Shown piece after piece: positions 2,779-30,546 of a stretch of DNA of 32,000 bases. Positions within the stretch are counted from its first letter, which is position 1. Every line of letters starts with the position of its first letter. Under the pieces are notes generated by a model. It was not told the origin of the DNA, did no database searches, and saw only the letters and a list, made by a program, of their open reading frames with translations. Both the position numbers and the translations under genes were made by a program. The DNA is from a bacterium (GTDB lineage Bacteria; UBP7; UBA6624; JBBIMK01): assembly GCA_037444445.1 (NCBI GenBank), contig JBBIMK010000011.1, forward strand, positions 29,083-61,082, in the 5' to 3' direction.

Positions 2779-2780
2779 AA

Positions 2781-2789
2781 ATTATAGCA
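2781..2789 (-). promoter_or_regulatory. extended -10 promoter (TGCTATAAT) for the riboswitch transcript
   Basis: The reverse complement of 2781-2789 is TGCTATAAT, immediately 5' of the riboswitch. No convincing -35 element. Confidence 0.45.
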
Positions 2790-8712: not shown

Positions 8713-8720
8713 CCCCTCTC

Positions 8721-8996
8721 TCACCCTACCCGAAACCGAAGGCTCGCCACCTGCAAACCCTCCCGCCGTAGCCTCTGCAAAATTTCCTCCCGATGGCATT
8801 CCAGTTCCATACACACCGCCGGCGATGCTCCCTCTACGGTCAAGCATCCTTCTCGGTAGGAAACCACCTTCGTCGTCGCCGCAAGGGCAGGTCCTACGAT
8901 GGTTTCCCATTTCCCTTTAATCTTCCCCTCCGTGTAGAGATGGGACATACCCAGTTTCTTTAATGTGCCACTGACTACTTTATCCAGACTCTTCAT
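8721..8996 (-). CDS. DUF721 (DciA-like) small protein
   Basis: 91 aa. W..IVGPALAATTKVVSYREGCLTVEGASPAVCMELE resembles the DUF721 core (W-IVG-IA-HT...L-V-V-S...A-EL). It sits at the head of the gyrB-containing gene string. Confidence 0.6.
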   Translation of the reverse strand: MKSLDKVVSGTLKKLGMSHLYTEGKIKGKWETIVGPALAATTKVVSYREGCLTVEGASPAVCMELECHREEILQRLRREGLQVASLRFRVG

Positions 8997-9228
8997 CCAC
9001 CCACCAACAAAAAGTATACATCAAAATCCAACAAAATCAAACAGAACATCCAGTTATCCTTCAGGGGGTCAGGCATCGGATTGTGCCATTATTTGCAGAG
9101 TGTCTCCCCTGTCCTGATTTTCGGGAGCCCAACTCTGTCGGGGCAGGCCGCCGAGTGTCTGTGCCCTGACACACTTCCCTGCCAGCCAACCTGAATGACC
9201 TGTGGTGTAAAATAGAGAATGGAAGAGG

Positions 9229-10242
9229 ATGAAAAGAATTCTCATTCTGAAAAAGGGAATACCACCGGCCACAAGAAACCGCCTGGTGGACAGGTTAATG
9301 CGCCTCCCGGTGAAGTATGAATCGGGCTTGTGGAAGGGAGAAGATGCCATTTTTATCCAGGGCTCATTCTCCTTCTCTCCTCGGCTACTTACCCGCTTGC
9401 CAGGAGTCAGAGAAGTGATTCAGCCCTCTACCCCATATTCCCTCGCATCCCGGGATGCACGGGAAGGGGACACGGTGATTCAGGTGGGCCAGGTTCGCAT
9501 CGGGGACGGCTGTTTTGTCATCATCGCCGGTCCCTGCTCGGTGGAGAGTCGGGAGCAAATCATTGCGACGGCGAAAGTGGTGAAGAAAGCGGGGGCGCAC
9601 CTCCTTCGGGGCGGAGTGTATAAACCCCGCACCTCTCCTTACTCCTTCCAGGGCCTGGGCAAAACGGGCCTCCAGTACCTGTCAGAAGCCAGGAAACTCA
9701 CGGGCTTGCCTGTGGTGACTGAAGTCCTTTCCCCGGAGGACATAGAGAGGGTGAGCAGTGTGGCGGATGTCCTGCAGATTGGCTCCCGAAATATGCAGAA
9801 TTTCCCCCTTCTGAAAGCCGTTGGAAAAACCTCCCACCCGATTCTCCTGAAGCGGGGTATGATGGCCACGCTGGAAGAGTTCCTTCTGGCGGCGGAATAT
9901 ATCCTGTCGGAAGGGAATGACCGGGTGATTCTGTGCGAGCGTGGGATACGAACCTTTGAGACCAGCACAAGGAACACGCTGGATATTTCTTGCGTTCCAC
10001 TTTTGAAAGAATTGAGCCATCTGCCGGTGATTGTGGACCCCTCGCACGCCTGCGGTCGGAGAAGCCTGGTTCTGCCTCTTTCCCGGGCGGCTCTGGCGGT
10101 GGGCGCCGACGGGTTGATGGTGGAAGTCCATCCCGACCCGGTTCGGGCTCTATCGGACGGGTTTGAAAGCCTGGATTTCCCCGCCTTTTCTGCATTGATG
10201 AAGGAGTTACACCGACTCCGCCACATCTTCCAGCGGTCGTGA
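9229..10242 (+). CDS. aroF: 3-deoxy-7-phosphoheptulonate (DAHP) synthase, type I-beta, with N-terminal ferredoxin-like regulatory domain
   Basis: 337 aa. ~70-aa N-terminal extension, then the catalytic core IIAGPCSVESREQ, LRGGVYKPRTSPYSFQGLG, LQIGSRNMQNF, VIVDPSH. Confidence 0.9.
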   Translation: MKRILILKKGIPPATRNRLVDRLMRLPVKYESGLWKGEDAIFIQGSFSFSPRLLTRLPGVREVIQPSTPYSLASRDAREGDTVIQVGQVRIGDGCFVIIAGPCSVESREQIIATAKVVKKAGAHLLRGGVYKPRTSPYSFQGLGKTGLQYLSEARKLTGLPVVTEVLSPEDIERVSSVADVLQIGSRNMQNFPLLKAVGKTSHPILLKRGMMATLEEFLLAAEYILSEGNDRVILCERGIRTFETSTRNTLDISCVPLLKELSHLPVIVDPSHACGRRSLVLPLSRAALAVGADGLMVEVHPDPVRALSDGFESLDFPAFSALMKELHRLRHIFQRS

Positions 10243-11528
10243 TGACCCTCTCACGCCCCCGACGAATCCGGGGAGTCCTTCGCCCTCCCGGAGATAAATC
10301 CATCACCCATCGGGCTTTGATTCTTTCTGCATTGAGCCGGGGGACCTCGGAGATTGGGAACCCGGCTCCCGGCGTGGATGTTCTTCGGACGGTCCGAGCC
10401 CTGAAAGCCCTGGGCCTGTCGGTGGTCCTCAGCGGTTCCAGATTTCAGGTTAAAGGGTGCCCGAAAACCGGGTTTCGGGAGCCCCTGTCCCCTTTGCAGT
10501 GCGGGAATTCCGGCACGACTGCCCGTCTGCTGATGGGGCTTTTAGCCGGTCGGCAGGGCTTCGCCGTCCTCACGGGTGATGCTTCGTTACGCCGACGCCC
10601 GATGGGTGATGTCATCACTCCTTTGATGCGTATGGGCGCTTCTATCCTCGCCCGGGGACGGAATCACCTCTTGCCTGCCGCCATTCAGGGTGCCCGATTA
10701 CATCCCATCCGTTACTCTTTTCCTGACCCCAGCGCCCAGGTGAAATCCGCTCTCCTCATCGCTGGAATTCAAGCCCTCGGAACCTCCACCTTTGTGGAAC
10801 CAGTTCCCACCAGAGACCACACAGAGCGTCTGCTGAAGGCGATGGGGGCTCGCATCCAGATTCACGGCACACACATTCAGGTCGCTACCTCTCACCTGAC
10901 CCCGATTTCCATTGAAGTTCCCGGCGACTTTTCCTCATCCGCATACTTTCTGGCTTTAACGGTGGCTCATCCAGACGCCAGTGTTTGCCTTCAGAATGTG
11001 GGGTTAAACCCCACCCGAACCGCCTTCCTCAATGCCCTCCAGAGGATGGGCGCCCGAATCTCTGTCCGTCCTGATCCACCTCCCACAGATGAAACTCTGG
11101 AACCCATCGGTGAAATCTCTGCTGAATCTTCCTCCTTAAAAGCAACTCGTGTGGAAGGGATAGAGGCGAATCAGATGCTGGATGAAATCCCTCTTTTAGC
11201 CGTGGTAGCCACGCAGGCAGATGGCGAAACGGTGATTCGGGATGTCCCACAACTCAGGCAGAAAGAGAGCGACCGCATCCATACCATCGCACAGAACCTG
11301 AATAGAATGGGCGCTCGCGTGCAAGAACTCCCCGATGGCTTGCGTATCCAGGGCCCCACACCCCTTCAAGGGGCCTCCTTCCTTCGCATCGCCGACCATA
11401 GAATCCTGATGAGCCTCGTCATTGCCTGTTGTCTGGCGCACGGAAAGTCTGTTTTCTACCACCCCCACCCGGTGAACATCTCATACCCTTCCTTCTTTGA
11501 ACACCTTCAATCCCTTCTCCCCGGATAA
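10239..11528 (+). CDS. aroA: 3-phosphoshikimate 1-carboxyvinyltransferase (EPSP synthase)
   Basis: PGDKSITHRALILSAL, CGNSGTTARLLMG, ESDRI motifs. The GTG at 10239 (or ATG at 10242) overlaps the DAHP synthase stop. Confidence 0.9.
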   Translation: MMTLSRPRRIRGVLRPPGDKSITHRALILSALSRGTSEIGNPAPGVDVLRTVRALKALGLSVVLSGSRFQVKGCPKTGFREPLSPLQCGNSGTTARLLMGLLAGRQGFAVLTGDASLRRRPMGDVITPLMRMGASILARGRNHLLPAAIQGARLHPIRYSFPDPSAQVKSALLIAGIQALGTSTFVEPVPTRDHTERLLKAMGARIQIHGTHIQVATSHLTPISIEVPGDFSSSAYFLALTVAHPDASVCLQNVGLNPTRTAFLNALQRMGARISVRPDPPPTDETLEPIGEISAESSSLKATRVEGIEANQMLDEIPLLAVVATQADGETVIRDVPQLRQKESDRIHTIAQNLNRMGARVQELPDGLRIQGPTPLQGASFLRIADHRILMSLVIACCLAHGKSVFYHPHPVNISYPSFFEHLQSLLPG

Positions 11529-11830: not shown

Positions 11831-12787
11831 TTACTTCGGGAGGTGGAAGAGGGAAAGATGTAGAGGGTGGGAGTTGGTAATAAGGGCTTTGCCGATGTTT
11901 TTCCCACGGCTGAACCGCTTTTCGTATCCTTTGCCCACCGCTGGATATTTCTCCCAGGAAGGATATTGAACCGCCAGAGAGAAGAATTTTTGAATTTCTT
12001 CCTCGTCCAGTTCTGAAGATTCTTCACCGGCGCCTTCCAGGTCCTCTAATGCATCCAGAGAATAACTTAACAGGAGTTTTGGGGCGAGACGGGTGAACAG
12101 GGAGGGCGTGGAAAAAATGTCCAGGCAGAGGATTCGGCGCTGGGTGGCCGCCAGGAAACCTACCTGCTCTGGCTTCAGGATGAGAATTTCAGATTTCACA
12201 CCGGTAGATGTGGACCGCGGATTCACTATCTGGCGGGTGTACCGGGATAATTCCTGGTGTTTGGAGGCATAGGACTGGCTCATAGAAGAGGTGGCAGAAG
12301 CCACGCGCAGGGTGGAGAGTTTTCGGTCCACCTCATTCCAGATGCCTGCCTGGTCGGCCTCAAATCTGCCGGTGGTTTTCAGGGATTTGTGAACGGAGCG
12401 TGTGGACAGACCACGAAGGGTGGGATAGGCACAATATAAACTGCTGGAGAAGGCTTTTGAACCGCTCCATCGCCCCGCTTCCACACAGGCTACGGGAGCG
12501 GAAATCCGACTCTCCGCAGGCAGACGAAAGGAGGTAACGAACACCCGGTTCTGCAGGGCTCCGATGACCTCTTCGCCATCCAGAACGAACACATCCTGCC
12601 CCCCATCATTTTCCATTTCCACTTCAGGCACCCTCTCCGTATCGTGCACTCTCACCGATTTGGATGCCAGCCCTTCTTCCAGTGTCAGCACCGGGTCCTC
12701 CCCTTTCCCGCCTCCAAAAACCGGGAAGAGGTAAAGATTGCTGGAAAAAACAGGCTCACCCATTTCCCATTTCATTTCCTTTGCCAT
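11831..12787 (-). CDS. hypothetical protein resembling the ARPP-1 / DUF6569 family
   Basis: 318 aa. GGAGGAG RBS. N-terminal pattern LYLFPVFGGG...LTLEEGL...VPEVEMENDGGQDVFVLDGEEVIGALQNRVFVTSFRLPA...VACVEAGRWSGS matches my recollection of that family (LTVFPL...ELxVxNxxxxPVLLLDGEELxGAKQNR...VSCVEQGRW). Confidence 0.6.
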   Translation of the reverse strand: MAKEMKWEMGEPVFSSNLYLFPVFGGGKGEDPVLTLEEGLASKSVRVHDTERVPEVEMENDGGQDVFVLDGEEVIGALQNRVFVTSFRLPAESRISAPVACVEAGRWSGSKAFSSSLYCAYPTLRGLSTRSVHKSLKTTGRFEADQAGIWNEVDRKLSTLRVASATSSMSQSYASKHQELSRYTRQIVNPRSTSTGVKSEILILKPEQVGFLAATQRRILCLDIFSTPSLFTRLAPKLLLSYSLDALEDLEGAGEESSELDEEEIQKFFSLAVQYPSWEKYPAVGKGYEKRFSRGKNIGKALITNSHPLHLSLFHLPK

Positions 12788-14229: not shown

Positions 14230-14262
14230 TGCCCCCCGGACCTGTGGTAAAATAATGACAGA

Positions 14263-14550
14263 ATGCCAAAACGACGCTTTAGAGTTGCAAAGACGAAAAA
14301 GGAAAGCCCGGAGACCATAACCTTGAAGGAACCCCCGGAAAAGATGGAGGAGTATCCGGGCAAGAAATTACGAGAAGAGGGGGCAGAATCCCTCACCCCC
14401 GCCCAACTTCTCGCCGTCCTCTCCTGGCAAGTCAAGCGCCTTGAAAACGCACTCACAGAAGTCACGAGAGGAGCAGGTATCACCGTCTGCAAACGCCACA
14501 AGGAACGGCGCATAAGGAAGATTACGCTGTTTTCCGGAGGTTACGTGTGA
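14263..14550 (+). CDS. small basic hypothetical protein (95 aa)
   Basis: Preceded by the extended -10 TGGTAAAAT (14245-14253), so nearly leaderless. Contains GAESLTPAQLLAVLS, reminiscent of the first helix of RadC N-terminal modules. 4-bp overlap with the next ORF. Confidence 0.45.
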   Translation: MPKRRFRVAKTKKESPETITLKEPPEKMEEYPGKKLREEGAESLTPAQLLAVLSWQVKRLENALTEVTRGAGITVCKRHKERRIRKITLFSGGYV

Positions 14551-14747
14551 TGTGGTGGTGTGAGGGGTGCAAGCGGGAGTTTGACCAGGATCGGATGGCG
14601 GTGGAGGTCCGGTTTGGATATGTGGACCCGCCGGATGCCGACCGTCCGGAAGAGGACCAGTGGGAACGGTTCACCACCGACTCCTCGTATGCGCCGCTGT
14701 GCGACGATTGCGCCATCGCCTACATTCGTGGCGACATCAACCTCTGA
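14547..14747 (+). CDS. small zinc-ribbon-like hypothetical protein (66 aa)
   Basis: CEGC...CDDC cysteine pairs at each end, acidic centre. GTGATG overlap with the upstream ORF suggests translational coupling. Confidence 0.5.
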   Translation: MMWWCEGCKREFDQDRMAVEVRFGYVDPPDADRPEEDQWERFTTDSSYAPLCDDCAIAYIRGDINL

Positions 14748-14865
14748 GCTTCAGATCGGGGAACGAGGCGGGAGGGGGCGGGCAGTATGAGTGAATGGCG
14801 ACTGGTGGCACATCATTGAGAATGCAACTAAGACGGGGATTGGGGGGTTTACTTTGGCTCTAAAT

Positions 14866-14908
14866 CCTTGACACAAATATAGGGGGTATAGTTTAGTATA
14901 ATAATAGT
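14866..14908 (+). repeat. promoter-like direct repeat, copy A
   Basis: CCTTGACACAAATATAGGGGGTA (23 nt, identical to 19013-19035), then 5 nt, then TAGTATAATAAT (identical to 19038-19049). TATAAT at 14897-14902 puts the predicted +1 on the A of the ATG at 14909. Confidence 0.8.
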
Positions 14909-15607
14909 ATGGATGGACGAAAGGCAAAACTTTCAGGCAGGATGAAGGGAGACAAATTTCGGGAGGAGGCCAGCTTGTTTCCTACACCAGAAGGGAAGGA
15001 GCCGGCACCTCCGCCGCTGAAGCCGGAGGCAGACTATTTCCATCCGGGCGGTAAACTGCTTTACACGGGTGCAGAGAACTGCACGGATGAGGAACTTGTG
15101 GCGATACTTATCGGGTATGGTTGCAAGGGGCGGACTGCCAAGCAGATTGCCGACGAAATCCTGCTGGACTGGTATTCGGTGAACGGCATGATGAATAAGT
15201 TCAATCGGCAATGTATTACCCGGGAAGACTTGCTTACATATCGGTGTATGGACGAACTGAAAGCACGACGGGTCCTGGCAGGTCTTGAACTTGCACGGCG
15301 AATCTGTAAGTATGTGGGCTACCAGGGGCGGACGCTGGAGATGATGAAGGATGACCGCCCGGATGTAGAAGTGCTGACGGACCTGTTCCATGACCTGGGC
15401 ACCAGGCTTGAAGAAGCGCGGCTCATCGCTCAAGGATACCTCAGCAAATATAACGGCTTATTGGGATGGATGGGCAAGCCGCTGGCGGATATGTTGAAAA
15501 TCAGGGGCATTGGCAAGGTGAAAGTGGCGCGCTTGGGCACGGTTTATGAAATCGCACGCCGAACTACTAAGCGGGAGGACCTGGACTGGCGCGTTTGGGT
15601 GAAATGA
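14909..15607 (+). CDS. tandem RadC-N-terminal-like (UPF0758 HhH) protein lacking the JAB/MPN domain
   Basis: 232 aa. Module 1: LLYTGAENCTDEELVAILIGYGCKGRTAKQIADEILLDW...ELKARRVLAGLELARR. Module 2: ARLIAQGYLSKYNGLLGWMGKPLADMLKIRGIGKVKVARLGTVYEIARR. Both follow the RadC N-terminal pattern (L-D-ELLA-LL-G-KG...A-L...GL...L..I-GIG-KA--L-A--EL-RR). No HNHPSG-type JAB motif. Confidence 0.7.
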   Translation: MDGRKAKLSGRMKGDKFREEASLFPTPEGKEPAPPPLKPEADYFHPGGKLLYTGAENCTDEELVAILIGYGCKGRTAKQIADEILLDWYSVNGMMNKFNRQCITREDLLTYRCMDELKARRVLAGLELARRICKYVGYQGRTLEMMKDDRPDVEVLTDLFHDLGTRLEEARLIAQGYLSKYNGLLGWMGKPLADMLKIRGIGKVKVARLGTVYEIARRTTKREDLDWRVWVK

Positions 15608-15616
15608 GGTGAGATT

Positions 15617-18151
15617 GTGGTGGGAAAGATAACGGCGAGCACTCCCCAATCAGAAGGAACTGGAATCCAGCATATCAACCGGCAAATCCCACCCCTCGCC
15701 CACGCGCCGATGCATGTCTGGCACAAGTTCTGGTCTCGCAAGACCTGGAATGTGGTCGCAGAGCATATCAAGTGCTATTGCCCGGAGGGCGGGGTCGTTC
15801 TGGACCCGTTCGCGGGCAGCGGGGTCACCGCTATGGAAGCTCTCAGGAACGGACGGCGTGCCATCGTTTGCGATATTCTGCCCGTTGCCACCGAAATTAT
15901 TCGCCTCACCATCCAACCCGTGAACATTGAAGAACTCCAAAAAGCGTTCCGACGGGTAGAGAGGAGAGTAAGGAACAGAATTGAAAGATTGTATATGACC
16001 AAGTGTCGGAAATGTGGGGCTGAATTCCCCTTTACCTGCGCTGTCTGGGATGCGGGAGAATTGGAAGAAATCCGTTATGAACAGTGTCCGAAATGCGGCG
16101 ACCGCAGGGAACAGAATTGCCCCCCCACATCTTCGGATATTGCTTTGCTTCGTCAGATAGAATCGCGGCAGGTCAAGGAATGGTATCCGCGGAATCGGTT
16201 GTACTATCCGGACGGGCGGGCTTTCAAGGAAAAACAGCAGTACGAATCACTGGACCAACTGTTCACAAAGCGGAATCTTCAAGCCCTCGCCTGGCTCATG
16301 GATGCCATAGAGAAAGAACCCAACCCTTTGCTCAGGGATTTTTTGAAGATTGCCTTTACCTCAATGGTCCACTTGTGTAGCCGGCTTGCGGCCGCTGGTC
16401 GTCCCGGTTATCGCCCATTTAGTGGCGTGGGATGGAACCAGCAGAGTTACTGGTATACGCCGCTTTACTTAGAATCCAATATCTGGCTCAAATTTGAAAG
16501 CGCCATCTTTGGTCCACAGGGGCTTCTCAGAGGCAAGGAGGAATCTAATGAGTATTTTGCAAATAAACGCATGGTCAAAACCCTCCGCACCTTTCTAAAG
16601 GGGACGGGCCACATCTACATCCACACCGGCGATTGCCTGAGATTGATGAAACAAATGCCGGATGGCTGTGTGAATTACATTTTCACCGACCCACCTTATG
16701 CATCCTCCATTCAATTCGGAGAACTGGCATATCTCTGGGTTGCGTGGCTCAAGAAAGACAAGGGCTACTTAGACAGCCTGTTGCGAGATGAGGTTGTGGA
16801 AAACCTGAATCAAGGCAAATCTTTTGATTTTTATATAGCCAGAGTGAGAACAGCCTTTGACGAAATGTTCCGCGTCCTCAAGCGGGGTGGGTGGCTGACC
16901 GTCACTTTTCATAATCCTACACTCAAAGTGAGGAATGCAACAATCCGGGCCGGGCATATTGCGGGGTTTGATTTTGAGCATATCCATCTGCAGGAACTGG
17001 CTCGTCCTTCGGCAAAATCGCTTCTCCAGCCTTACGGGTCTGCCCACGGTGACTTCTATCTGCGATTTCGCAAGCCGGCCGCTGTAAGGACTTTGACCGC
17101 AGGTGAACGAACAGCAGATAAGTTTGAGCGTGTGGTCGTGGATGCGGTGATTCAAGTCCTTGCAGAGCGCGGGGAAGCAACCCCAAAGTATGTGATAGAT
17201 AACTATGTGGACCCCATCCTCTCCAGGAACGGGTTCTTCCCGTCCATAGAAGTGGACGGAAAAACATTGAGTGTGGATGAGGTTCTGAAGAGGCACGAGG
17301 GGCAGGAATTCATCAAGGTGCCAATGGAAGTTGGTGGGCACAAGGGCTATGGCTGGTGGTTGAAAAACCCGCAACAGGTCAAGAACCTTGAGAAAATCCC
17401 CCTTTCAGAGCGTGTGGACCAGGCGATTATACGCTTGCTGATGGAGAGGGGAAAAGCCACTTTCACAGAAGCATTGGAGAAAGTCTTTACAGAATTCCCC
17501 AATTCGTTGACTACGGACAGCACAAGCGTAAAGGAAGCGCTGGAACGCTATGGCAACAAGCGAGGAAGTGGCTCCTCCGCTACTTATGTGCTAAAGCCTG
17601 TCATCAGACAAACTGAAAGAGAGCACGACCAAATCATCGGGCACCTCGCTGAAATCGGCAGGGCCCTCGGATACGGGGTATGGATCGGGATGCCCGAACA
17701 ATCCAGAACATATCCACGCAAGAATAAACCCCTGAGTGAATGGGTTACCGCAGACCTCAACCAGGTGGACAATGTGCTGAGCCTTGAGGATGCAGAAAGG
17801 GTAGATTGTCTCTGGGTGAGCGAAAGAAAAATTGTCTATTCTTTTGATGTAGATAGGTTTACTCCGCTGATGGAGTCGCTGAGGCGCGGCGCCAGTATCT
17901 CAGAACCTGTGAAACGGTATCTTGTCCTTCCGGATGAACGCCACACTCAATTCCAGAAAAGGCTGAAGAACCCGCTGTTCAACGAGGATTACGAGAAATA
18001 TGGATGGGATGTTCTTTACTTCAGCGCCCTTCAGTCCAACTTCAAATCCCTGAAAGCCGGCAAAAAGACGATAGAAGAAATAGCCGGTTCCCCTCCCGAG
18101 AATCCCCACCGCAATCCCGAAGTGAAGCCCACAAAATTATTTGACCCCTGA
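15617..18151 (+). CDS. DNA N6-adenine/N4-cytosine methyltransferase with permuted motif order, Zn ribbon, winged-helix-like middle region and C-terminal PD-(D/E)xK-like domain
   Basis: 844 aa. The GTG start follows AGGTGAG. Motif X/I at the N-terminus (MHVWHKFWSRK...VVLDPFAGSGVTAMEA, aa 32-75). CxxC...CxxC at aa 130-160. TGDCLRLMKQMPDGCVNYIFTDPPY at aa 337-361. FRVLKRGGWLTVTF. C-terminus EREHDQIIGHLAEIGRALGYGVWIG...VDCLWVSERKIVYSFDVDR (aa 667-747). Confidence 0.85.
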   Translation: MVGKITASTPQSEGTGIQHINRQIPPLAHAPMHVWHKFWSRKTWNVVAEHIKCYCPEGGVVLDPFAGSGVTAMEALRNGRRAIVCDILPVATEIIRLTIQPVNIEELQKAFRRVERRVRNRIERLYMTKCRKCGAEFPFTCAVWDAGELEEIRYEQCPKCGDRREQNCPPTSSDIALLRQIESRQVKEWYPRNRLYYPDGRAFKEKQQYESLDQLFTKRNLQALAWLMDAIEKEPNPLLRDFLKIAFTSMVHLCSRLAAAGRPGYRPFSGVGWNQQSYWYTPLYLESNIWLKFESAIFGPQGLLRGKEESNEYFANKRMVKTLRTFLKGTGHIYIHTGDCLRLMKQMPDGCVNYIFTDPPYASSIQFGELAYLWVAWLKKDKGYLDSLLRDEVVENLNQGKSFDFYIARVRTAFDEMFRVLKRGGWLTVTFHNPTLKVRNATIRAGHIAGFDFEHIHLQELARPSAKSLLQPYGSAHGDFYLRFRKPAAVRTLTAGERTADKFERVVVDAVIQVLAERGEATPKYVIDNYVDPILSRNGFFPSIEVDGKTLSVDEVLKRHEGQEFIKVPMEVGGHKGYGWWLKNPQQVKNLEKIPLSERVDQAIIRLLMERGKATFTEALEKVFTEFPNSLTTDSTSVKEALERYGNKRGSGSSATYVLKPVIRQTEREHDQIIGHLAEIGRALGYGVWIGMPEQSRTYPRKNKPLSEWVTADLNQVDNVLSLEDAERVDCLWVSERKIVYSFDVDRFTPLMESLRRGASISEPVKRYLVLPDERHTQFQKRLKNPLFNEDYEKYGWDVLYFSALQSNFKSLKAGKKTIEEIAGSPPENPHRNPEVKPTKLFDP

Positions 18152-18207
18152 GTGAAATCAGTTAGGAACCCGCAAATCCACATAGAAAGTGCAATAGGAG
18201 GGAAAAA

Positions 18208-18744
18208 GTGAAGAGAAATAAAGTCCTGAATTATCCCTGGTATGTGTGGTCCTTTATAGGAATTGGATTGGGTGTCGCCGTATTAGCAACTTTCTGTAAG
18301 ATATCGGTTGAATTGGGGACGATGTGGATACTCTTGCTCACTCTCATCGCTGTCATCCTCTATTTTTATGAGACAAAGCGGATTGCTGATTGGGGGCCGA
18401 TGCAGTTCCGCCTGTACTGGATTTCGGAAGTTTTCCGCTATACACTCAATAAAAGGATTGATGACTGTATTTCAGCTCTTAAATCAGATAAAAGGGAGGG
18501 GTTGGATGCTTCTATTAGAAAGGAGATAAATAGCCAGTTAAGTTTTCTGGCTGAGTTGTGGCCAGACCCGAGCGCAGGGAAGAAAATCGGGGAAGAAAAG
18601 AGGGACGAGTTTGAGAAGAAATGGGAGGCAGTTGATGAGAAATATACAGAGAAAAACCGCTGCGAGCTTAGTAGTTATTTATATGAACTAAAAAATTGGC
18701 TCCAAACTGAGTTGGGGAAACTGGCTAAACTGCCAGACCCCTGA
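18208..18744 (+). CDS. two-TM membrane protein with charged helical cytoplasmic tail
   Basis: 178 aa. The GTG start is 6 nt after GGAGGG. TM1 is YVWSFIGIGLGVAVLATF, TM2 is MWILLLTLIAVILYFY. The C-terminal ~110 aa are Lys/Glu-rich. Visibly more AT-rich than the flanks. Confidence 0.65.
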   Translation: MKRNKVLNYPWYVWSFIGIGLGVAVLATFCKISVELGTMWILLLTLIAVILYFYETKRIADWGPMQFRLYWISEVFRYTLNKRIDDCISALKSDKREGLDASIRKEINSQLSFLAELWPDPSAGKKIGEEKRDEFEKKWEAVDEKYTEKNRCELSSYLYELKNWLQTELGKLAKLPDP

Positions 18745-19012
18745 TACTGACAGAGTAAGGGTTCTTGGTTCTATAAGGTCAAGCCCACACCAAAATCCTC
18801 TAATCAAGACACCTGCAATACCAGGAGACAAGAGGGTCGTGCCTGACGAGTGAGCCACCAAACCGCCTCCCGCCTAACAGCCTCAGGTGGCAGGCCTTGA
18901 AACTTGACTTATCCTCAAATCCAGATACCAGGCCTTGCCAAAACGCGTCTCTAAACTTCGGTATCATTGGGTAAAATTTCAAGATCAGATACCTCTGACC
19001 CACATGCGAACC

Positions 19013-19052
19013 CCTTGACACAAATATAGGGGGTAGGTAGTATAATAATGGT
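19013..19052 (+). repeat. promoter-like direct repeat, copy B
   Basis: Same 23-mer and 12-mer as copy A, separated by 2 nt instead of 5. TTGACA at 19015-19020, TATAAT at 19041-19046 (20-nt spacing), or TAGTAT at 17-nt spacing. It lies upstream of the 96-aa ORF, which has GGAGG at 19084-19088. Confidence 0.8.
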
Positions 19053-19097
19053 GAGGCGAATCGGTTTTGAGGCAATGAGGGAAGGAGGCGTGATGAG

Positions 19098-19388
19098 ATG
19101 AAAGAGAAGACTTATATGGAAAAACTGGACCGGGAGGGACGCAGGAAGTTTATGCTGGCGACGCAACTGCTCAGGGATTCCCTTTCCGATGTAGAATCCA
19201 CCCGGCAAAGAGCGGGTATGACCCTGATGGCGCTGCAACGGGAACTTCTGCCAGCCCTGAAGGCCCTTCACGAGAACCCGGAAGCCCTGAGAGAGGCGGG
19301 GCTGGAGCCATCACGCCGCACCCTCACCGCTCTGAGAGGCATCGCTTTCTTCCGGAGTGCGTTTTGTGGCAAAATACCCTTTTCATAA
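19098..19388 (+). CDS. hypothetical helical protein (96 aa)
   Basis: GGAGG lies 9 nt upstream. Driven by repeat copy B. No recognisable family. Confidence 0.5.
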   Translation: MKEKTYMEKLDREGRRKFMLATQLLRDSLSDVESTRQRAGMTLMALQRELLPALKALHENPEALREAGLEPSRRTLTALRGIAFFRSAFCGKIPFS

Positions 19389-19422
19389 AGGGCAGGTAGC
19401 CCTCCCCTACAATGCCGTTTTT

Positions 19423-20337
19423 TTATATGTAGCCGAGGGAGCGCAGTAGGTCTTCCCGCTGTCGCCACTTCTTCTTCACTTTCACCCAGAGTTCTAAATA
19501 GATATGCCTGCCGAGGAGTTTTTCTATATCCTTTCGGGCGGAAGAGCCGATGGCCTTCAACATAGCTCCATCCTTACCGATGAGGATTTTCTTCTGGGAT
19601 TCCTGCTCCACTGCGAGAATGGCTGAGATATGAAGTAAGTCCCTTTTCTCCTCCAGAGTTACATCCATCACGGCGGTAGAATGAGGGATTTCCTCTTTTG
19701 TGAGTTCAAAAACCTTCTCCCGGATGATTTCAGCGATTTGCAGGGGGAGGGGTAAATCTGTCTTCATCTCCGCTGGAAAATAGGGGGGTCCTTCGGGCAG
19801 AATGGATAGAATTTCCTGCAGGAGCCGGTTCAGGTGGATTCCTTTCAATGCAGAAATCAAGAAAGTCTTTTGAAATGGGAAGACAGCGGATAAGGATTTT
19901 TCACGGGCGTGCCACTGGTTCTCAGCAATCAAATCAATCTTGTTAATCAGAAGGAACACCGGAGTGGAAAGGGCAGAGAGTTTTTGAAGAGCCAGGGATT
20001 CCCAGTTCCCTATCCCTTTTGTGGCATCCACGAGGAACAGGATGAGGTCGGAGCCGGAAAGAGCCTGAAAAGCGGTGGAAACGAGGAATTGTTCCACGGG
20101 CAGGCGTGGGTTCACGATTCCGGGCGTGTCCACGAAAACAATCTGGGCATCGGGCAGGTGTAGAACGGCGGAGGTTTTGAATCGGGTGGTCTGAGGCTTT
20201 TCAGAGATGATGGAAACCTTTTCGCCCACGAGAGCATTCACCAGGGTGGATTTCCCCGTATTGGTGGCGCCTGAAACGACCACGATACCCGAACGAAAAG
20301 CCACCCTATCCTTCTTTTCTCCCTGCCCCCCACCCAA
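19423..20337 (-). CDS. era: GTPase Era
   Basis: G1 GATNTGKST, G2 PQTTR, G3 DTPG, G4 NKID, C-terminal KH domain (KKILIGKDGAMLKAIG). The ATG at 20337 overlaps nadK by 32 nt. The alternative GTG at 20304 starts 2 nt after the nadK stop. Confidence 0.9.
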   Translation of the reverse strand: MGGGQGEKKDRVAFRSGIVVVSGATNTGKSTLVNALVGEKVSIISEKPQTTRFKTSAVLHLPDAQIVFVDTPGIVNPRLPVEQFLVSTAFQALSGSDLILFLVDATKGIGNWESLALQKLSALSTPVFLLINKIDLIAENQWHAREKSLSAVFPFQKTFLISALKGIHLNRLLQEILSILPEGPPYFPAEMKTDLPLPLQIAEIIREKVFELTKEEIPHSTAVMDVTLEEKRDLLHISAILAVEQESQKKILIGKDGAMLKAIGSSARKDIEKLLGRHIYLELWVKVKKKWRQREDLLRSLGYI

Positions 20338-23649: not shown

Positions 23650-26600
23650 TTACCGGGTGGGAGCAGGCATCCTGAAAACAAGAATTGCCGCAAGAAGGAG
23701 CGTTAGAGAAAGAAAAATAAAGATGGTTGTGATAAACCCGGGCTTCTTCCAGATAGGCTCTTTAGCGTAGGCTTTATTTTCTGCCCATTTCAGAAGAGGA
23801 ACTGGACCTGCTCCCACATCTTTTTCCTGATATTCCACCGCCCAATCATACCGGGGTGCCCGAGCGTCCGCATTTCCTGCATATACCCTCAAGGGTGGGG
23901 TATAACGCTCGGGATAATATACCCTCCGCTCCCATTGCTTCCACTGTATTTTCAGGAAATTCAATGGCTCGTTATCACCATGCTCAATCACGAATCGCAA
24001 ACTCCGGGGAGACCGGAAGTCGGAAAGACGGATGGATAGGGGATTATCAGGATGCCCTTGATAGCGAAACAGTCGGCCGGTGAGAGCTTCCCGCCATTTG
24101 CCCTTGCCTGCCTCCTCATCCGGAATTTCCAGTCTGTATTCTCTAAAAAAATTTCTCTCCTCAATGTGCAATTCCAGGACTTCAACAGGTATATCGGGAT
24201 AGGGCCATTCTACCTCAATGATGGTTTGCGCCGGATTCTTCTGGTGTGTAATAGACTGACGGGTTGGAAGGATTTCACGATAAATTTCGGGTTTCTTCTG
24301 TATGTGCGCCGCAGTAAAAGAGTCAAAACGGATGGTTTTCGTTCCTCCCAGGTAAGTTTCCACTTCTATCTCTGCTTTGAAGAATTTGTAGGTGACCCCC
24401 GGGAAAGACAATTGAAGATGCTCCTGGGCCGGGGTTTGGAGTTTATACACCTCCCCCTCTGCTACTTGCTTCCACCTCTTTGCGTCTTCACTGGCAAACA
24501 CCTTTGCTCTCCCTTTAAAATATCCACTCACCTTCAGGTTCACCGAAGTGACGCCCCGGGTGATGGGAGATATGGCCTCGGCAGACACTTCAAATTTCTT
24601 CCTGTCTGGCGAGGAAAGTATGTTGAAATAACTTAATGAATAAGGAGTTTCCACAGATTTGCCCTGCATCACACGGAATACATAAGGTATCTCTTTTCCT
24701 TTCGCATCTATAAGCCGGAGGTCGGATGCATCGGAGTTTGTATACTGAAAGGTGGATTCGTCCACGATGAAGTAGTAGACAGGCCCTGCCAATGGCGGGG
24801 CTCCTGCCTCGCGCACCATTTTCCAGGACTTCGGGTCAAAGTCTGCGAAAGAGTATGTGGAGAAGAGAAAGAAGAAGAGGAGGGTGAAGAGAGAGGCTTT
24901 ACCCATTCTTCCTCTCCTGTATAAATACGATACCACGAGCAAGATGACTCCCAGCGCAAAGGCGCTCAGGAACCTCACCTCCGGGGGCAAAAAGAAGAGG
25001 TCATACAGAAAGACTTTAAAGAAAGTTACCCCAGCCAGGACGAAACCAAACGCCCGAAGCACAGGGCTAACGAATCGGAATCCCAGCCCGATAACAACAG
25101 CGGATTCCAGTAGCCAGAAAAGGGTTTGAATCAAGCGAGCCGACTGAGAAACATCCAGATAAGAAGCCACATACCAGGCTTCTCGGAACAGAAATAAAGG
25201 GGTGGAAATCAAGCCAAGAATGCCCCAGATGAAAGAAAGTTTCTTTTCCTCTTCCTTGAGTTGCTCCTGAAATCTCTTCCAGAAGAAGCCCGCATAGAAA
25301 AGCACTCCCATAAGGGTATAGGCGGGGATAGTGTTTTTATGGAGAAAAGGAATGGGGGAGGGCGATATTTCCATTCCGGAATACACAAACCACTCGGGGA
25401 GATAAAGCAGAAACAACACCATCAGGGCGATACCCCCCAGAACTCGGAAGGAAGCATCGGAAAGCACGGCGCTGAGGTAAATGAGGAAAGCGGCCTCCAG
25501 GCACATCGCCGGGAAAAGATAATCATAATTCTGCGTGAAGTTCAAAAGGGCAATGTCCAGCATAATCAGGCTGGAAAAGGTGGACACAAATCGCAGAGAG
25601 GCATCGTATGCCCTCTTCCCGGAGAAAAATAGACCGAGCAGGGCGAAAAATGTCCCCACCAACAGCGAAAACACGGCATATCCCCCTTGCAACTCTACCT
25701 GGGAAACCCTGCCATATAATTTCTTGACCACCTCCCCTACCCATTCCCCGGATAGGTAGAAAAAGACTATAGAATTAGCAAAAAAAACTAATGCATCTAC
25801 TAACCGGATGGGAAATTTCCCATACATTCTTTTGGTGATGATGGAAAGGGTGAAGAGAGCAAAGGCGAGGGTAAATACAACCTCACTGGCACCCGGTGAG
25901 ATTCTGATAGACCATTGCGTGAAAAGAATATAGATGGGGTAGGTCACAAAGAAGACCAGGGAGAAATTGAGCAACCACCCACGAAAGGAATTGAAGAGTG
26001 CCGCTAATAGAAGCAAGACGAAAAAGTATAAAGAAAATTCTATGAACCTGCCTTTTTCAAAAGATAGGATGGTCAATGTGCCGGCAATCAAAGTGAGTGT
26101 CCCGAGAAATGACGAATTGTGGCGGAGCGCGAAAGCAAATCCAGTCAGGGTGATGGAAAAAAGGAACAGGGTGTATACCTCGGAAGGGATTTGCTGATAC
26201 AGGAAATAAGAAGCGAAGACGGAGATGAATAACACCGCAATTCCCGCACCTGAGAGGGCATCCGACTCCCGCCACCGATGTTTGTTGAACAGCCATTCCC
26301 CTCCTGCCAGCATTGCGATTCCAGCCCCAATTCCCATCAGCACCCTCTCCGCAGGCCCAATCCATCCCTTCTGGAAGGCATACAGGAGGAAAAGCAGGGC
26401 GGAAACCACCAGAGCAAACCCGCCCAATCGGCTGAACCATACCCTTCCCACCAGGGTTTCCCATTCCAGGGTTATCGGTAGTTTTTCCCTCTTTACCGCT
26501 AATGGTGTGGGTATTTTCGGCTGGACAACCTGGGGCTGTTCTGACGGCTCTAAAACTCCCACCTTCCTCTCCAACCGCTCCAGCCGCGCCTCTACTTCAC

Positions 26601-26832
26601 GAATTTTCTGAAAGACATCCGCTTTCTCACCTAAAAACCCTTTCAACGCCCAGACTAATGCCACCACCCATCCAATCACCGTCCAGCCCAAAAGCAGGTT
26701 CACCAGGGTGATTGTCCCGGCATCTTTTAACCTCCTGTAGTAAGCGATGAAAGAAGGCAGAGCATAAACGGCAATATAAAATAAAATCTGTAAAATCCCC
26801 TGGGCTCCCCATAAAATCCAGAAAGGTTCCAT
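23650..26832 (-). CDS. 1060-aa membrane protein: Imm-superinfection-like N-terminus + DUF2339-like polytopic region + DUF3999-like C-terminal region
   Basis: N-terminus YALPSFIAYYRRLKDAGTITLVNLLLGWTVIGWVVALVWAL, then coiled coil REVEARLERLERKV, then ~20 hydrophobic helices. An internal signal-peptide-like MGKASLFTLLFFFLFSTYSFA (Met codon 24906-24904, preceded by GGAGAGG) leads into a ~400-aa soluble region ending in a TM helix. Confidence 0.8.
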   Translation of the reverse strand: MEPFWILWGAQGILQILFYIAVYALPSFIAYYRRLKDAGTITLVNLLLGWTVIGWVVALVWALKGFLGEKADVFQKIREVEARLERLERKVGVLEPSEQPQVVQPKIPTPLAVKREKLPITLEWETLVGRVWFSRLGGFALVVSALLFLLYAFQKGWIGPAERVLMGIGAGIAMLAGGEWLFNKHRWRESDALSGAGIAVLFISVFASYFLYQQIPSEVYTLFLFSITLTGFAFALRHNSSFLGTLTLIAGTLTILSFEKGRFIEFSLYFFVLLLLAALFNSFRGWLLNFSLVFFVTYPIYILFTQWSIRISPGASEVVFTLAFALFTLSIITKRMYGKFPIRLVDALVFFANSIVFFYLSGEWVGEVVKKLYGRVSQVELQGGYAVFSLLVGTFFALLGLFFSGKRAYDASLRFVSTFSSLIMLDIALLNFTQNYDYLFPAMCLEAAFLIYLSAVLSDASFRVLGGIALMVLFLLYLPEWFVYSGMEISPSPIPFLHKNTIPAYTLMGVLFYAGFFWKRFQEQLKEEEKKLSFIWGILGLISTPLFLFREAWYVASYLDVSQSARLIQTLFWLLESAVVIGLGFRFVSPVLRAFGFVLAGVTFFKVFLYDLFFLPPEVRFLSAFALGVILLVVSYLYRRGRMGKASLFTLLFFFLFSTYSFADFDPKSWKMVREAGAPPLAGPVYYFIVDESTFQYTNSDASDLRLIDAKGKEIPYVFRVMQGKSVETPYSLSYFNILSSPDRKKFEVSAEAISPITRGVTSVNLKVSGYFKGRAKVFASEDAKRWKQVAEGEVYKLQTPAQEHLQLSFPGVTYKFFKAEIEVETYLGGTKTIRFDSFTAAHIQKKPEIYREILPTRQSITHQKNPAQTIIEVEWPYPDIPVEVLELHIEERNFFREYRLEIPDEEAGKGKWREALTGRLFRYQGHPDNPLSIRLSDFRSPRSLRFVIEHGDNEPLNFLKIQWKQWERRVYYPERYTPPLRVYAGNADARAPRYDWAVEYQEKDVGAGPVPLLKWAENKAYAKEPIWKKPGFITTIFIFLSLTLLLAAILVFRMPAPTR

Positions 26833-30382: not shown

Positions 30383-30546
30383 CCCGCTACCTCCCTCGCC
30401 AATGAGTTACTTTACCACAAAAAATGCCGGCGCAGTGCCTGTCCTCACCCGTCTGGAAAATGGGCAATGAAGGGTGGTCAACAAATCCTGCATTTTGTTA
30501 CCTCAAAGAGGGCAATGGGGGCTGAAATTCCCCCATTTTTTATTAC

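What the first reader, a model, noticed from the sequence alone, without database searches (positions are those of the whole stretch)
14245..19388. Candidate undescribed modification/defence-like island
**Content**
- About 5 kb is wedged between the TIGR02757-like gene and era, and encodes six ORFs with no housekeeping role.
- Operon 1 (14263-14747) holds two overlapping mini-proteins: one basic with a RadC-like first helix, one a Zn ribbon.
- Operon 2 (14909-18744) holds a double RadC-N HhH protein without the JAB peptidase, an 844-aa DPPY methyltransferase fused to a nuclease-like fold, and a 2-TM protein. Gene gaps are 9 nt and 56 nt.
- A 96-aa protein follows, under a copy of the same promoter.

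**Why it may be new**
- There is no separate restriction endonuclease, helicase, specificity subunit or ATPase, so it does not fit Type I, II or III R-M, BREX or DISARM as I know them.
- RadC-type modules and methyltransferases co-occur on mobile elements, but I do not recognise this particular combination.
- The 3' part looks more AT-rich than the surrounding core genes, which suggests horizontal acquisition.
Basis: inference. Interest (0 to 1): 0.85.

Follow-up and report, generated by a model that had tools for sequence, protein, structure and literature searches.

The report
Single-chain restriction-modification enzyme with HhH partner
The conserved core here is a two-gene cassette: a small RadC-N-type DNA-binding protein, then one large protein combining a DNA adenine methylase with a restriction-type nuclease domain; this is a recognisable but uncharacterised kind of restriction-modification system, and the other four small ORFs are local extras.

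Summary
The six ORFs, the 9-nt and 56-nt gene gaps and the duplicated promoter are all real. The "six-gene island" is not a unit. Only two genes travel together elsewhere: the 232-aa RadC-N (HhH) protein and the 844-aa methyltransferase. In 66 of 85 related loci from many phyla the HhH gene lies directly upstream of the methyltransferase, usually overlapping it. The 844-aa protein has three parts: an alpha-class (Dam-topology) DPPY adenine methylase with a Zn-ribbon insert, tandem winged helices, and a C-terminal NmeDI_C-type PD-(D/E)xK-like domain. The acidic residues of that last domain are invariant across 77 homologues. This is the layout reported for the Type IIC enzyme BtgZI, so it does fit Type II R-M. 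Searching with the HhH protein gave 75 loci with enough downstream sequence to judge. In 68 of them it precedes a single-chain R-M enzyme: this family in 28, and two unrelated classical Type IIG families in 40. I found no description of that partnership. The remaining ORFs (95, 66, 178 and 96 aa) have no homologues at related loci, apart from one close relative that carries the 178-aa and 96-aa genes. Composition gives no sign of recent transfer. Verdict: a new variant of a known kind, of moderate interest. No function has been tested.

The parts
14263..14550 (+). 95-aa ORF: truncated paralogue of the RadC-N partner, keeping only the N-terminal 'PGxKL...LLAVL' segment. Specific to this lineage and not part of the conserved module.
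   Evidence: Residues 1-53 align with residues 12-67 of the 232-aa protein (36% identity, E 2e-5). tblastn with partner proteins hits only 14290-14466, in this frame. Pfam UPF0758_N is weak (0.011). No full homologue in related loci.
14547..14747 (+). 66-aa ORF with two CxxC pairs (possible Zn ribbon). It overlaps the 95-aa ORF by 4 nt. Function unknown; not conserved with the module.
   Evidence: sequence. Pfam gives only weak hits (0.09). No homologue in 85 related loci. No similarity to the Zn ribbon of the 844-aa protein.
14866..14908 (+). Promoter-like element, copy 1: TTGACA at 14868-14873, then a TAGTAT/TATAAT box. A 3-nt insertion relative to copy 2 makes the spacer 20-23 nt.
14909..15607 (+). 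RadC-N (UPF0758_N) helix-hairpin-helix partner protein, tandem form, no JAB domain. Its likely true start is ATG 14942.
   Evidence: Pfam 1.8e-12 and NCBIfam RadC 7.6e-16, below the full-length cut-off. A homologue lies directly upstream of the MTase in 66 of 85 loci. Alignment.
15617..17071 (+). Residues 1-485 of the 844-aa protein: alpha-class N6-adenine methyltransferase module. DPFAGSG is at 15803-15823, the Zn-ribbon insert (C130, C133, C157, C160) at about 16004-16096, and DPPY at 16688-16699.
   Evidence: Pfam N6_N4_Mtase 2.7e-18. PADLOC PglXI 2.3e-37 and MTase_II PDLC03319, which aligns with residues 36-456. The AF2 model's best PDB matches are E. coli Dam. Invariant residues.
17114..17581 (+). 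Residues about 500-655 of the 844-aa protein: two winged-helix-like domains.
   Evidence: AF2 models. After FokI, the Foldseek matches are tandem winged-helix proteins.
17582..18151 (+). Residues about 656-844 of the 844-aa protein: NmeDI_C-type PD-(D/E)xK-like domain. The putative site is E694, D730 and D744-x-D746; the family consensus is E-x-E.
   Evidence: Precomputed Pfam PF27126 NmeDI_C. H670, E694, Q695, D730, W733, E744, E746, T749, R757, G758 and R775 are invariant or nearly so in 77 homologues. Alpha/beta core in the AF2 model.
18208..18744 (+). 178-aa protein with two predicted TM helices and a strong GGAGGG Shine-Dalgarno sequence. Lowest GC in the island. Found only in the closest relative, L086, where it appears frameshifted.
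   Evidence: No family hit.
19013..19052 (+). Promoter-like element, copy 2: TTGACA, 17 nt, TAGTAT (10 of 12 consensus matches).
   Evidence: Also present upstream of the homologous gene in L086.
19098..19388 (+). 96-aa protein of unknown function. It is 95% identical in L086 and absent from all other related loci.
   Evidence: The only family hit is a weak NHLP-like match (5e-4, below cut-off).

Best explanation
The functional unit is the two-gene operon at 14909-18151.

- **The enzyme (inferred).** The 844-aa protein is a single-chain restriction-modification enzyme of the Type IIC kind. Its N-terminal alpha-class methylase recognises a short DNA site through the insert between motif I and DPPY, which contains a Zn ribbon and resembles the insert of PglXI. 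It methylates an adenine there on host DNA.
- **Cleavage (inferred).** The C-terminal half has a Type IIS-like layout: tandem winged helices followed by an NmeDI_C-type PD-(D/E)xK domain. By analogy with FokI, NmeDI and BtgZI, it cuts unmethylated incoming DNA near or at a fixed distance from the site, probably after two molecules pair up.
- **The partner (inferred).** The small RadC-N (HhH)2 protein is made from the same transcript, immediately before the enzyme. It acts as a DNA-binding accessory that either loads or activates the enzyme on DNA, or tempers its nuclease.

Shown here: domain content, conservation of catalytic residues, and gene linkage. Inferred: enzymatic activities, cleavage geometry, and the partner's exact role.

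The 95-, 66-, 178- and 96-aa ORFs are local additions at a variable spot next to era.
For: **Domains and active sites**
- Both catalytic modules are in one chain, with intact motifs: DPFAGSG and DPPY, plus E694, D730 and acidic-x-acidic at 744-746.
- The nuclease-domain residues are invariant in 77 homologues from more than 15 phyla, which argues for a working active site.
- The C-terminal domain carries the Pfam label of a characterised Type IIS restriction enzyme (PMC2095814, PMC4081073).
- Fold searches give Dam for the N-terminal half. For the C-terminal half the best PDB match is FokI, but it is weak.
- The same domain order is reported for the Type IIC enzyme BtgZI (PMC4081073).

**Gene linkage**
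- The partner lies directly upstream of the MTase in 66 of 85 loci, with gaps of -44 to +12 nt in nearly all.
- Searching from the partner gave 75 loci with at least about 600 nt downstream. In 68 the next large gene is a single-chain R-M enzyme: this family in 28, and two unrelated Type IIG families in 40. Those two match the PADLOC REase_MTase_IIG models PDLC03606 and PDLC03630 over most of their length. All three share the same overlap geometry with the partner.
- Replacement of one enzyme by unrelated ones next to the same partner points to a shared job.

**Evolutionary behaviour**
- Closely related operons differ most in the segments between motif I and DPPY, at residues 115-195 and 235-310, where an alpha-class TRD lies.
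- The window and L086 are 95-97% identical in era but only 55-65% identical in parts of this gene.
- The family is essentially absent from 2.9 million viral contigs, and no full-length member was found in the plasmid or phage collections.
Against: - No activity has been measured, and no methylome or recognition site is known.
- The third catalytic position is E (D in the window) rather than K. This occurs in BamHI (my own knowledge) but weakens the motif argument.
- The window's copy has unusual substitutions (E744D, E746D, T748F), so its nuclease could be attenuated.
- The FokI match is weak (E 4e-3, TM about 0.2), and profile comparison with the FokI cleavage domain found nothing.
- Sequence conservation is fairly uniform along the protein.
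- In Bacteroidota/Ignavibacteria the gene sits in a stable enolase-MTase-phosphoglucomutase arrangement without the partner. That looks more like a resident housekeeping methylase than a typical mobile R-M system.
- Neighbouring genes are ordinary metabolic genes, not defence islands.
- Homology to BtgZI itself could not be tested.
Confidence: 0.6

Rival explanations
1. The 844-aa protein is a resident (orphan) adenine methylase used for epigenetic control or DNA repair. Its C-terminal nuclease-like domain would nick or bind DNA for a host process, for example methyl-directed strand discrimination, and the HhH protein would be a repair-type cofactor. It would not be a phage-restriction system.
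For: - The family shows 41-55% identity over the full length across phyla, with fairly uniform conservation.
- The PVC and FCB clades group together in the clustering, which suggests long vertical descent.
- A fixed enolase-MTase-phosphoglucomutase arrangement occurs in 8 loci.
- Neighbours are metabolic and housekeeping genes.
- Host-like codon composition.
- HhH domains and RadC have a repair association in the literature (PMC3239186).
Against: - The same partner family is coupled to two classical Type IIG restriction enzyme families.
- The C-terminal domain is the one found in a proven restriction enzyme.
- Variable segments map to the expected specificity region.
- Divergence between near-identical genomes is mosaic.
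- Distribution is patchy across Nitrospirota, Deltaproteobacteria and CPR lineages, which are intermixed in the clustering.
Confidence: 0.2
2. The enzyme is an R-M fusion as above, but the HhH protein is only a transcriptional controller, analogous to C proteins. It would delay or set expression of the enzyme and would not be a subunit.
For: - It occupies the position of C proteins: a small gene immediately upstream in the same operon.
- The window has the same promoter-like element in front of the operon and in front of the 96-aa gene, which would suit a shared regulator.
Against: - (HhH)2 modules usually bind the DNA backbone without sequence specificity (established knowledge of the fold).
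- A controller cannot separate methylation from cleavage in time when both are in one chain.
- Overlapping stop and start codons in nearly all loci suggest stoichiometric co-production.
- A whole clade lacks the partner but keeps intact active sites.
- No conserved operator was identified. I did not search for one systematically.
Confidence: 0.2
3. One reading: all six ORFs from 14245 to 19388 form one new multi-gene defence system acquired horizontally.
For: - The ORFs are contiguous on the same strand between two housekeeping genes.
- A promoter element is shared between the operon and the 96-aa gene.
- The 178-aa and 96-aa genes persist next to the MTase in the close relative L086.
Against: - The four small ORFs have no homologues in 85 loci carrying the MTase family, and none were seen next to the partner in 80 further loci.
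- Downstream genes differ even within the window's own clade: 214 aa in L001, DUF6602/NucC-like in L002, and the 2-TM protein here.
- The 178-aa homologue appears frameshifted in L086.
- The 95-aa ORF looks like a truncated duplicate of the partner.
- No compositional or structural sign of an island.
Confidence: 0.05

Closest known systems
BtgZI (Type IIC/IIS restriction-modification enzyme, GCGATG 10/14)
   Same: As described in PMC4081073: one polypeptide with an N-terminal alpha-class methyltransferase and a C-terminal variant PD-(D/E)xK cleavage domain. The 844-aa protein has the same order and the same MTase class.
   Different: BtgZI's variant is reported as Q replacing E, whereas this family has E/D-x-E/D with no lysine. 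No accessory HhH protein is reported for BtgZI. Sequence homology could not be tested because I had no BtgZI sequence.
NmeDI (Neisseria meningitidis symmetric Type IIS endonuclease, 351 aa)
   Same: The C-terminal domain of the 844-aa protein carries the Pfam NmeDI_C label. The C-terminal half (about 350 aa: winged helices plus this domain) is about the size of whole NmeDI.
   Different: NmeDI is a separate protein with a separate m5C methylase gene (PMC2095814). Here the domain is fused to an N6-adenine methylase. Only the Pfam label was available, not a direct alignment to NmeDI.
Classical Type IIG enzymes (MmeI, Eco57I, BpuSI)
   Same: Methylase and nuclease are in one chain, and no separate R gene is needed. 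Two such families share the same RadC-N partner as this family.
   Different: Their order is reversed (N-terminal PD-ExK, gamma-class NPPY methylase, C-terminal TRD), and there is no sequence relationship to the 844-aa protein beyond the Rossmann fold.
RadC / UPF0758 proteins (YeeS-type)
   Same: The partner is homologous to the N-terminal HhH domain (Pfam 1.8e-12). The partner family, tested with a 99-aa member, is about 35% identical to annotated RadC proteins.
   Different: It lacks the JAB/MPN domain that defines RadC. It is 90-230 aa long with one or two HhH modules. Source databases name its 100-aa relatives 'DNA repair protein RadC'.
PglXI / BrxXI, the Type 3 BREX methyltransferase, and DUF1156 methylases
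   Same: It is the best PADLOC match (2.3e-37, residues 167-451), including the insert after the AdoMet-binding region (PMC12839542).
   Different: No PglZ, BrxC, BrxHII or other BREX genes occur nearby in the window or at related loci. PglXI has no nuclease domain.
FokI
   Same: It is the best PDB fold match for the C-terminal half: winged-helix recognition modules followed by a cleavage domain.
   Different: The match is weak (probability 0.69, TM about 0.2) with no sequence similarity. FokI has separate methylases.

Membership tests
Type IIC (combined) restriction-modification enzymes | A DNA methyltransferase domain with intact AdoMet-binding and catalytic motifs in the same polypeptide as the nuclease | tested here: met
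   DPFAGSG (63-69) and DPPY (358-361) are invariant. Pfam N6_N4_Mtase 2.7e-18.
Type IIC (combined) restriction-modification enzymes | An endonuclease domain with a conserved catalytic site | tested here: inconclusive
   The NmeDI_C label, an alpha/beta core in the AF2 model, and E694, D730, E744 and E746 invariant in 77 homologues all point that way. The motif lacks the lysine, there is no strong structural match, and the window has D744 and D746.
Type IIC (combined) restriction-modification enzymes | Demonstrated site-specific methylation and cleavage | not testable with these tools
   Needs cloning, a methylome and cleavage assays.
Classical Type IIG (MmeI/Eco57I-like) | N-terminal PD-ExK nuclease, gamma-class (NPPY) methylase, C-terminal TRD | tested here: not met
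   The motif order is FxGxG, insert, DPPY (alpha class). The best fold match is Dam. The nuclease-like domain is C-terminal. No REase_MTase_IIG model is among the 25 best of 71 PADLOC hits listed.
BtgZI-like Type IIC enzymes | N-terminal alpha-class MTase plus C-terminal PD-(D/E)xK variant | tested here: met
   Architecture as above, compared with the description in PMC4081073.
BtgZI-like Type IIC enzymes | Sequence homology to BtgZI; the Q-for-E catalytic variant | not testable with these tools
   No BtgZI sequence was available. The motif here is acidic-x-acidic, not the Q variant described.
NmeDI-type Type IIS endonucleases | NmeDI_C domain (PF27126) | tested here: met
   Precomputed Pfam hits on the window protein (P0001) and on all listed homologues. 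Fragments equivalent to the C-terminal 190 aa carry only PF27126.
NmeDI-type Type IIS endonucleases | Stand-alone endonuclease of about 350 aa with a separate cognate methylase gene | tested here: not met
   The domain is fused to the methylase in one 844-aa ORF. The apparent 336-aa stand-alone case, L087, looks like a split copy of the fused gene: 267 aa plus a gap plus 336 aa spans 2478 nt.
RadC (UPF0758) family | N-terminal HhH domain (UPF0758_N) | tested here: met
   Pfam 1.8e-12 and NCBIfam RadC 7.6e-16, covering the N-terminal part only.
RadC (UPF0758) family | C-terminal JAB/MPN domain | tested here: not met
   No JAB hit. Scores are far below the NCBIfam full-length cut-offs (58 bits against 180). 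The homologues are 90-230 aa with PF20582 only.
BREX (Type 3) | PglXI-type methylase together with PglZ, BrxC, BrxHII, BrxA and BrxF | tested here: not met
   Methylase similarity is present. No other BREX component was found among the window ORFs or among 150 neighbours at 45 related loci.
Type I / Type III R-M | A separate specificity subunit, or a Res/HsdR helicase-nuclease | tested here: not met
   No such ORFs in 14245-19388, and none recurrent at related loci.
Horizontally acquired genomic island | Deviant composition, flanking direct repeats, a tRNA target, or integrase/transposase genes | tested here: not met
   GC3 of the island genes falls within the host range except for the 178-aa gene. 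No tRNA and no flanking repeats. No mobility gene is recurrent at related loci. The locus does vary between close relatives.

The most novel reading that the evidence does not exclude
Stand-alone RadC-N (HhH)2 proteins are a previously unrecognised, dedicated accessory component of single-chain restriction-modification enzymes. The same small protein is translationally coupled to at least three unrelated enzyme families: this alpha-MTase/NmeDI_C family and two classical Type IIG families. It would be needed to load, activate or restrain them. That would define a two-component class of Type IIC/IIG systems, common in uncultivated bacteria, and would give the first concrete functional context for the enigmatic RadC N-terminal domain.
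Probability: 0.4. Interest if true: 0.65.

Novelty: new variant of a known kind. Interest (0 to 1): 0.5.

Why it matters
- **Gap in current annotation.** If the reading is right, a very large family is currently annotated only as "DNA methyltransferase" or "16S rRNA methylase RsmD", although it would be a restriction enzyme. The family has more than 1,800 clusters at 90% identity and spans many phyla; all 80 genome records recovered were MAGs, and none was found on sequenced plasmids or phages. PADLOC matched only its methylase half (best models PglXI and Type II MTase).
- **Possible reagents.** BtgZI-like enzymes are rare reagents, so this family could yield new Type IIS-like specificities.
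- **A missing component.** The recurrent HhH partner suggests that single-chain R-M enzymes, thought to be self-sufficient, can depend on a small DNA-binding companion. That would matter for heterologous expression of such enzymes and for understanding RadC-type HhH domains.
- **Misnaming.** The "DNA repair protein RadC" label that source databases give the 100-aa proteins is misleading.

Tried and rejected
- **Exact-sequence look-up of the window's contig** failed.
- **PADLOC, PHROGs, NCBIfam and Pfam** on the 95-, 66-, 178- and 96-aa ORFs gave nothing above threshold.
- **PDB sequence search** with the C-terminal profile found nothing. hhalign against the FokI cleavage domain (sequence from my memory) found nothing.
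- **Whole-protein Foldseek** was dominated by the methylase, so I modelled the C-terminal half separately. The result was still only a weak FokI match.
- **Profile search of 1.84 billion representatives** with the nuclease domain returned mostly the same fused family and its fragments. Following a small "stand-alone" hit led to fragments and to a split copy next to an IS element. I therefore found no independent architecture for the domain and no NmeDI itself.
- **The idea that the 66-aa Zn-ribbon ORF derives from the MTase Zn ribbon** is rejected.
- **Internal repeat of the 232-aa protein**: only weakly detectable by BLAST (E 0.004), but clear in the family alignment.
- **The first partner alignment** was too diverse for pattern search, so I redid it with the short-form partners.
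- **A defence-island context** was looked for and not found.
- **Literature searches** for UPF0758 or RadC with methyltransferase, Type IIG or HhH found no description of the pairing.


Full report

ORFs of 95 aa (14263-14550) and 66 aa (14547-14747) overlap by 4 nt. They are followed by ORFs of 232 aa (14909-15607), 844 aa (15617-18151), 178 aa (18208-18744) and 96 aa (19098-19388). All are on the plus strand, between a TIGR02757/DUF2400 gene and era. The gene gaps of 9 and 56 nt are correct.

The duplicated promoter-like element is real. A 23-nt exact core occurs at 14866 and at 19013 and nowhere else in the window, against 0 expected. It is followed by a near-identical TAGTATAATAAT box, with a 3-nt indel between the copies. 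Only the second copy has canonical 17-nt spacing.

The claim of AT-richness is only weakly true. GC falls to 0.46-0.48 at 17.5-19 kb, but by gene this is due to the 178-aa ORF (GC 0.43, GC3 0.50). The other five ORFs have GC3 of 0.58-0.78, against 0.59 +/- 0.07 for the other genes in the window. The window has no tRNA, and the island has neither flanking repeats nor room for a mobility gene of usual size.

**2. What the proteins are**

[quoted passage not shown] Aligned with its relatives it is a tandem of two such modules. Its probable start is M12 (ATG 14942). That is where the closest homologue (L002) and the internal paralogue begin to align.

*The 844-aa protein.* Its motif order is DPFAGSG, then a long insert with an invariant four-cysteine Zn ribbon, then DPPY. 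That order is alpha class and predicts N6-adenine methylation.

- The best PADLOC models are PglXI, the Type 3 BREX methylase (2.3e-37), and several Type II methylases. One of these aligns with residues 36-456.
- An AlphaFold2 model (pLDDT 83) has E. coli Dam as its best PDB match.
- Residues about 500-655 fold as two winged helices, and residues about 656-830 as an alpha/beta domain.
- The collection's precomputed Pfam annotation labels that last domain PF27126, NmeDI_C.
- NmeDI is a characterised 351-aa restriction enzyme that cuts 12/7 on both sides of RCCGGY. It is treated as a symmetric Type IIS enzyme (PMC2095814; PMC4081073).
- The C-terminal half modelled alone (pLDDT 82.6) has FokI as its best PDB match, but weakly (E 4e-3, probability 0.69), followed by tandem winged-helix proteins.
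- There is no sequence-level match to any PDB chain or to the FokI cleavage domain.

*The small ORFs.* The 95-aa ORF is a truncated paralogue of the partner's N-terminus (36% identity over 53 residues; only that frame and that segment match). The 66-, 178- and 96-aa ORFs match nothing above threshold. The 178-aa ORF has a strong Shine-Dalgarno sequence and two hydrophobic helices.

**3. What travels together**

The 844-aa protein belongs to a large family. More than 1,800 clusters at 90% identity were found. Most are about 840 aa and 50-55% identical to the window protein.

A scan of one genome per species returned 80 loci, all from MAGs. They come from Nitrospirota, Desulfobacterota, Planctomycetota, Verrucomicrobiota, Bacteroidota/Ignavibacteriota, Elusimicrobia, CPR and other lineages.

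- In 66 of 85 loci a RadC-N homologue lies immediately upstream on the same strand, with a gap of -44 to +12 nt in nearly all (typically -1, -4 or -14). This implies translational coupling.
- Including the window's own protein, 39 partners are about 100 aa with one module and 28 are about 140-230 aa, mostly with two modules.
- Most loci without a partner belong to one Bacteroidota/Ignavibacteria clade, where the gene sits between enolase and phosphoglucomutase.
- None of the 85 loci has a homologue of the 66-, 178- or 96-aa ORFs. The 95-aa ORF hits only the partner proteins themselves.
- All-against-all clustering of neighbours found no other recurrent gene.
- Family scans of 150 flanking proteins from 45 loci showed ordinary metabolic genes, with no recurrent defence or mobility families.

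The conserved unit is therefore two genes, not six.

**4. The reverse test**

I searched metagenome contigs with a profile of the short partners and kept 80 loci. The gene immediately downstream fell into these classes:

| Downstream gene | Loci |
|---|---|
| This methylase family | 28 |
| A 1,030-1,175-aa protein, family B | 31 (5 with a small intervening ORF) |
| A third family of about 1,080 aa, family C | 9 (1 with a small intervening ORF) |
| Less than about 600 nt of sequence downstream | 5 |
| None of the three | 7 |

The second and third families have gamma-class N6_Mtase/Eco57I/MmeI domains. They align over most of their length with PADLOC "Type IIG restriction enzyme-methyltransferase" models (PDLC03606: residues 39-959 on positions 27-892 of 935; PDLC03630: 80-721 on 55-744 of 1100). 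They also have obvious N-terminal PD...ExK motifs.

So in 68 of 75 assessable loci the partner precedes a single-chain R-M enzyme, drawn from three unrelated families. This is the strongest argument that the 844-aa protein is itself a combined restriction-modification enzyme and that the HhH protein is a dedicated companion of such enzymes.

The partner family is large. At least 989 clusters were found, about 100 aa each, with PF20582 only, unnamed or called "DNA repair protein RadC" by the sources. A 99-aa member of the family is about 35% identical to the N-terminus of annotated RadC proteins.

**5. Does the nuclease domain look alive?**

Across 77 full-length homologues, with or without a partner, the following are invariant or nearly so: H670, E694, Q695, D730, W733, E744, E746, T749, R757, G758, E774 and R775. 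The layout is an acidic residue after beta-1, D at the start of beta-2, and E-x-E at the end of beta-3. That fits a PD-(D/E)xK core in which the lysine is replaced. BamHI is a precedent, from my own knowledge.

The window's copy is atypical. It has D744 and D746, and F replaces a conserved T at 748. Its close relative L086 has D744 and E746. An attenuated nuclease in this particular genome cannot be excluded.

**6. Evolutionary behaviour**

L086, a contig from a close relative, is 95-97% identical to the window in era and around the 96-aa gene. Within the methylase-nuclease gene, however, identity alternates between 90-95% and 55-65%. L086 also has an extra 1.2 kb between the 96-aa gene and era. 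The spot is therefore variable.

In several other closely related pairs, the least conserved segments are residues 115-195, 235-310 and 388-428. The first two of these segments lie between motif I and DPPY, where alpha-class target-recognition elements sit. Both observations fit specificity turnover.

Two things argue for long residence. The clustering is partly congruent with taxonomy: the PVC and FCB clades are coherent and the rest are mixed. Codon composition is host-like.

The family is essentially absent from 2.9 million viral contigs. No full-length member was found in the plasmid or phage collections. The plasmid-borne relatives at 25% identity are plain methylases beside McrBC-like genes.

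**7. Comparison with known systems**

The Pingoud et al. review states that Type IIC enzymes normally have an N-terminal nuclease and a gamma-class methylase.

I could not test homology to BtgZI. It is not a classical Type IIG enzyme (wrong order, wrong methylase class). It is not BREX (no PglZ or BrxC). It is not Type I or Type III. The partner is not RadC in the defining sense, because it has no JAB domain.

I found no paper linking RadC-N or UPF0758_N proteins to Type IIG or Type IIC enzymes. The one detailed treatment of RadC contexts lists fusions to ArdC, primase and DinG-like helicases, but not this pairing (PMC3239186).

**8. Verdict**

The best-supported reading (confidence about 0.6) is a two-gene Type IIC-like restriction-modification module: a single-chain alpha-class m6A methylase plus NmeDI_C-type nuclease, with a translationally coupled (HhH)2 accessory protein. 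The four remaining ORFs are lineage-specific passengers at a variable locus.

The main rival (about 0.2) is a resident methylase whose nuclease-like domain serves a host DNA process. Whether the partner is a subunit or a controller is open.

The enzyme architecture is a known kind. The recurrent HhH partner shared by three unrelated single-chain R-M families appears to be new, hence "new variant of a known kind" and an interest score of 0.5. Every functional statement is inference from sequence, predicted structure and gene linkage.

Noticed in passing
L090-L169 (e.g. L124:3953-7766, L118:3212-6689, L145:554-4119): The same roughly 100-aa RadC-N protein family is coupled to two unrelated classical Type IIG enzyme families, often with the same 14-nt overlap. 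The N-termini of all three enzyme families begin with a similar basic peptide (MKKSKL...), encoded partly within the overlap with the partner's stop codon.
   Followed up: partly
L123:1264-1680, L141:3285-3698, L153 (about 1552-1965): In some loci a small ORF is inserted between the RadC-N gene and the Type IIG gene. It is a PIN-domain protein in L123 and a 137-aa ORF in L141 and L153.
   Followed up: partly
L036, L038, L042, L051-L053, L069, L074 (MTase at about 8001-10500): In a Bacteroidota/Ignavibacteria clade the methylase-nuclease gene has no HhH partner and sits in a conserved enolase-MTase-phosphoglucomutase arrangement. Its putative nuclease residues are intact.
   Followed up: partly
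L086:3547-4678 versus window 19388-19423: A close relative of the window (era 96% identical) carries about 1.2 kb extra between the 96-aa gene and era, with ORFs of 187 aa and 140 aa and no family hits. Its homologue of the 178-aa gene appears frameshifted.
   Followed up: partly
L002:9948-10679: In the second-closest homologous locus, L002 (61% identical MTase), the gene downstream of the MTase is a DUF6602 protein that matches PD-DExK/NucC-like nuclease models (PADLOC 2e-21). Downstream cargo differs in every member of the window's clade.
   Followed up: partly
window 11831-12787 (-): A 318-aa protein with a full-length ARPP-1 domain (Pfam 1.2e-70). From memory, this family has been tied to predicted biological-conflict systems. 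It lies two genes upstream of the island.
   Followed up: no
window 23650-26832 (-): A 1060-aa membrane protein combining Imm_superinfect, DUF2339 and DUF3999 domains. The region at 24.5-26.5 kb has a marked AT skew (0.23-0.34).
   Followed up: no
window 30500-32000: GC drops to 0.38-0.40. The region contains a 216-aa ORF with an N-terminal PIN domain (30913-31563, GC3 0.32), far below the window's norm. It is a better candidate for recently acquired DNA than the island under study.
   Followed up: no
window 2598-2783 (-): Cobalamin riboswitch (Rfam RF00174, 100.8 bits), upstream of the 384-aa ORF at 1427-2581.
   Followed up: no
L087:3747-6224: An apparent 'MTase (267 aa) plus stand-alone NmeDI_C protein (336 aa)' pair next to a DDE transposase gene. 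It spans 2478 nt and looks like a disrupted copy of the fused gene rather than a two-gene R-M system.
   Followed up: partly
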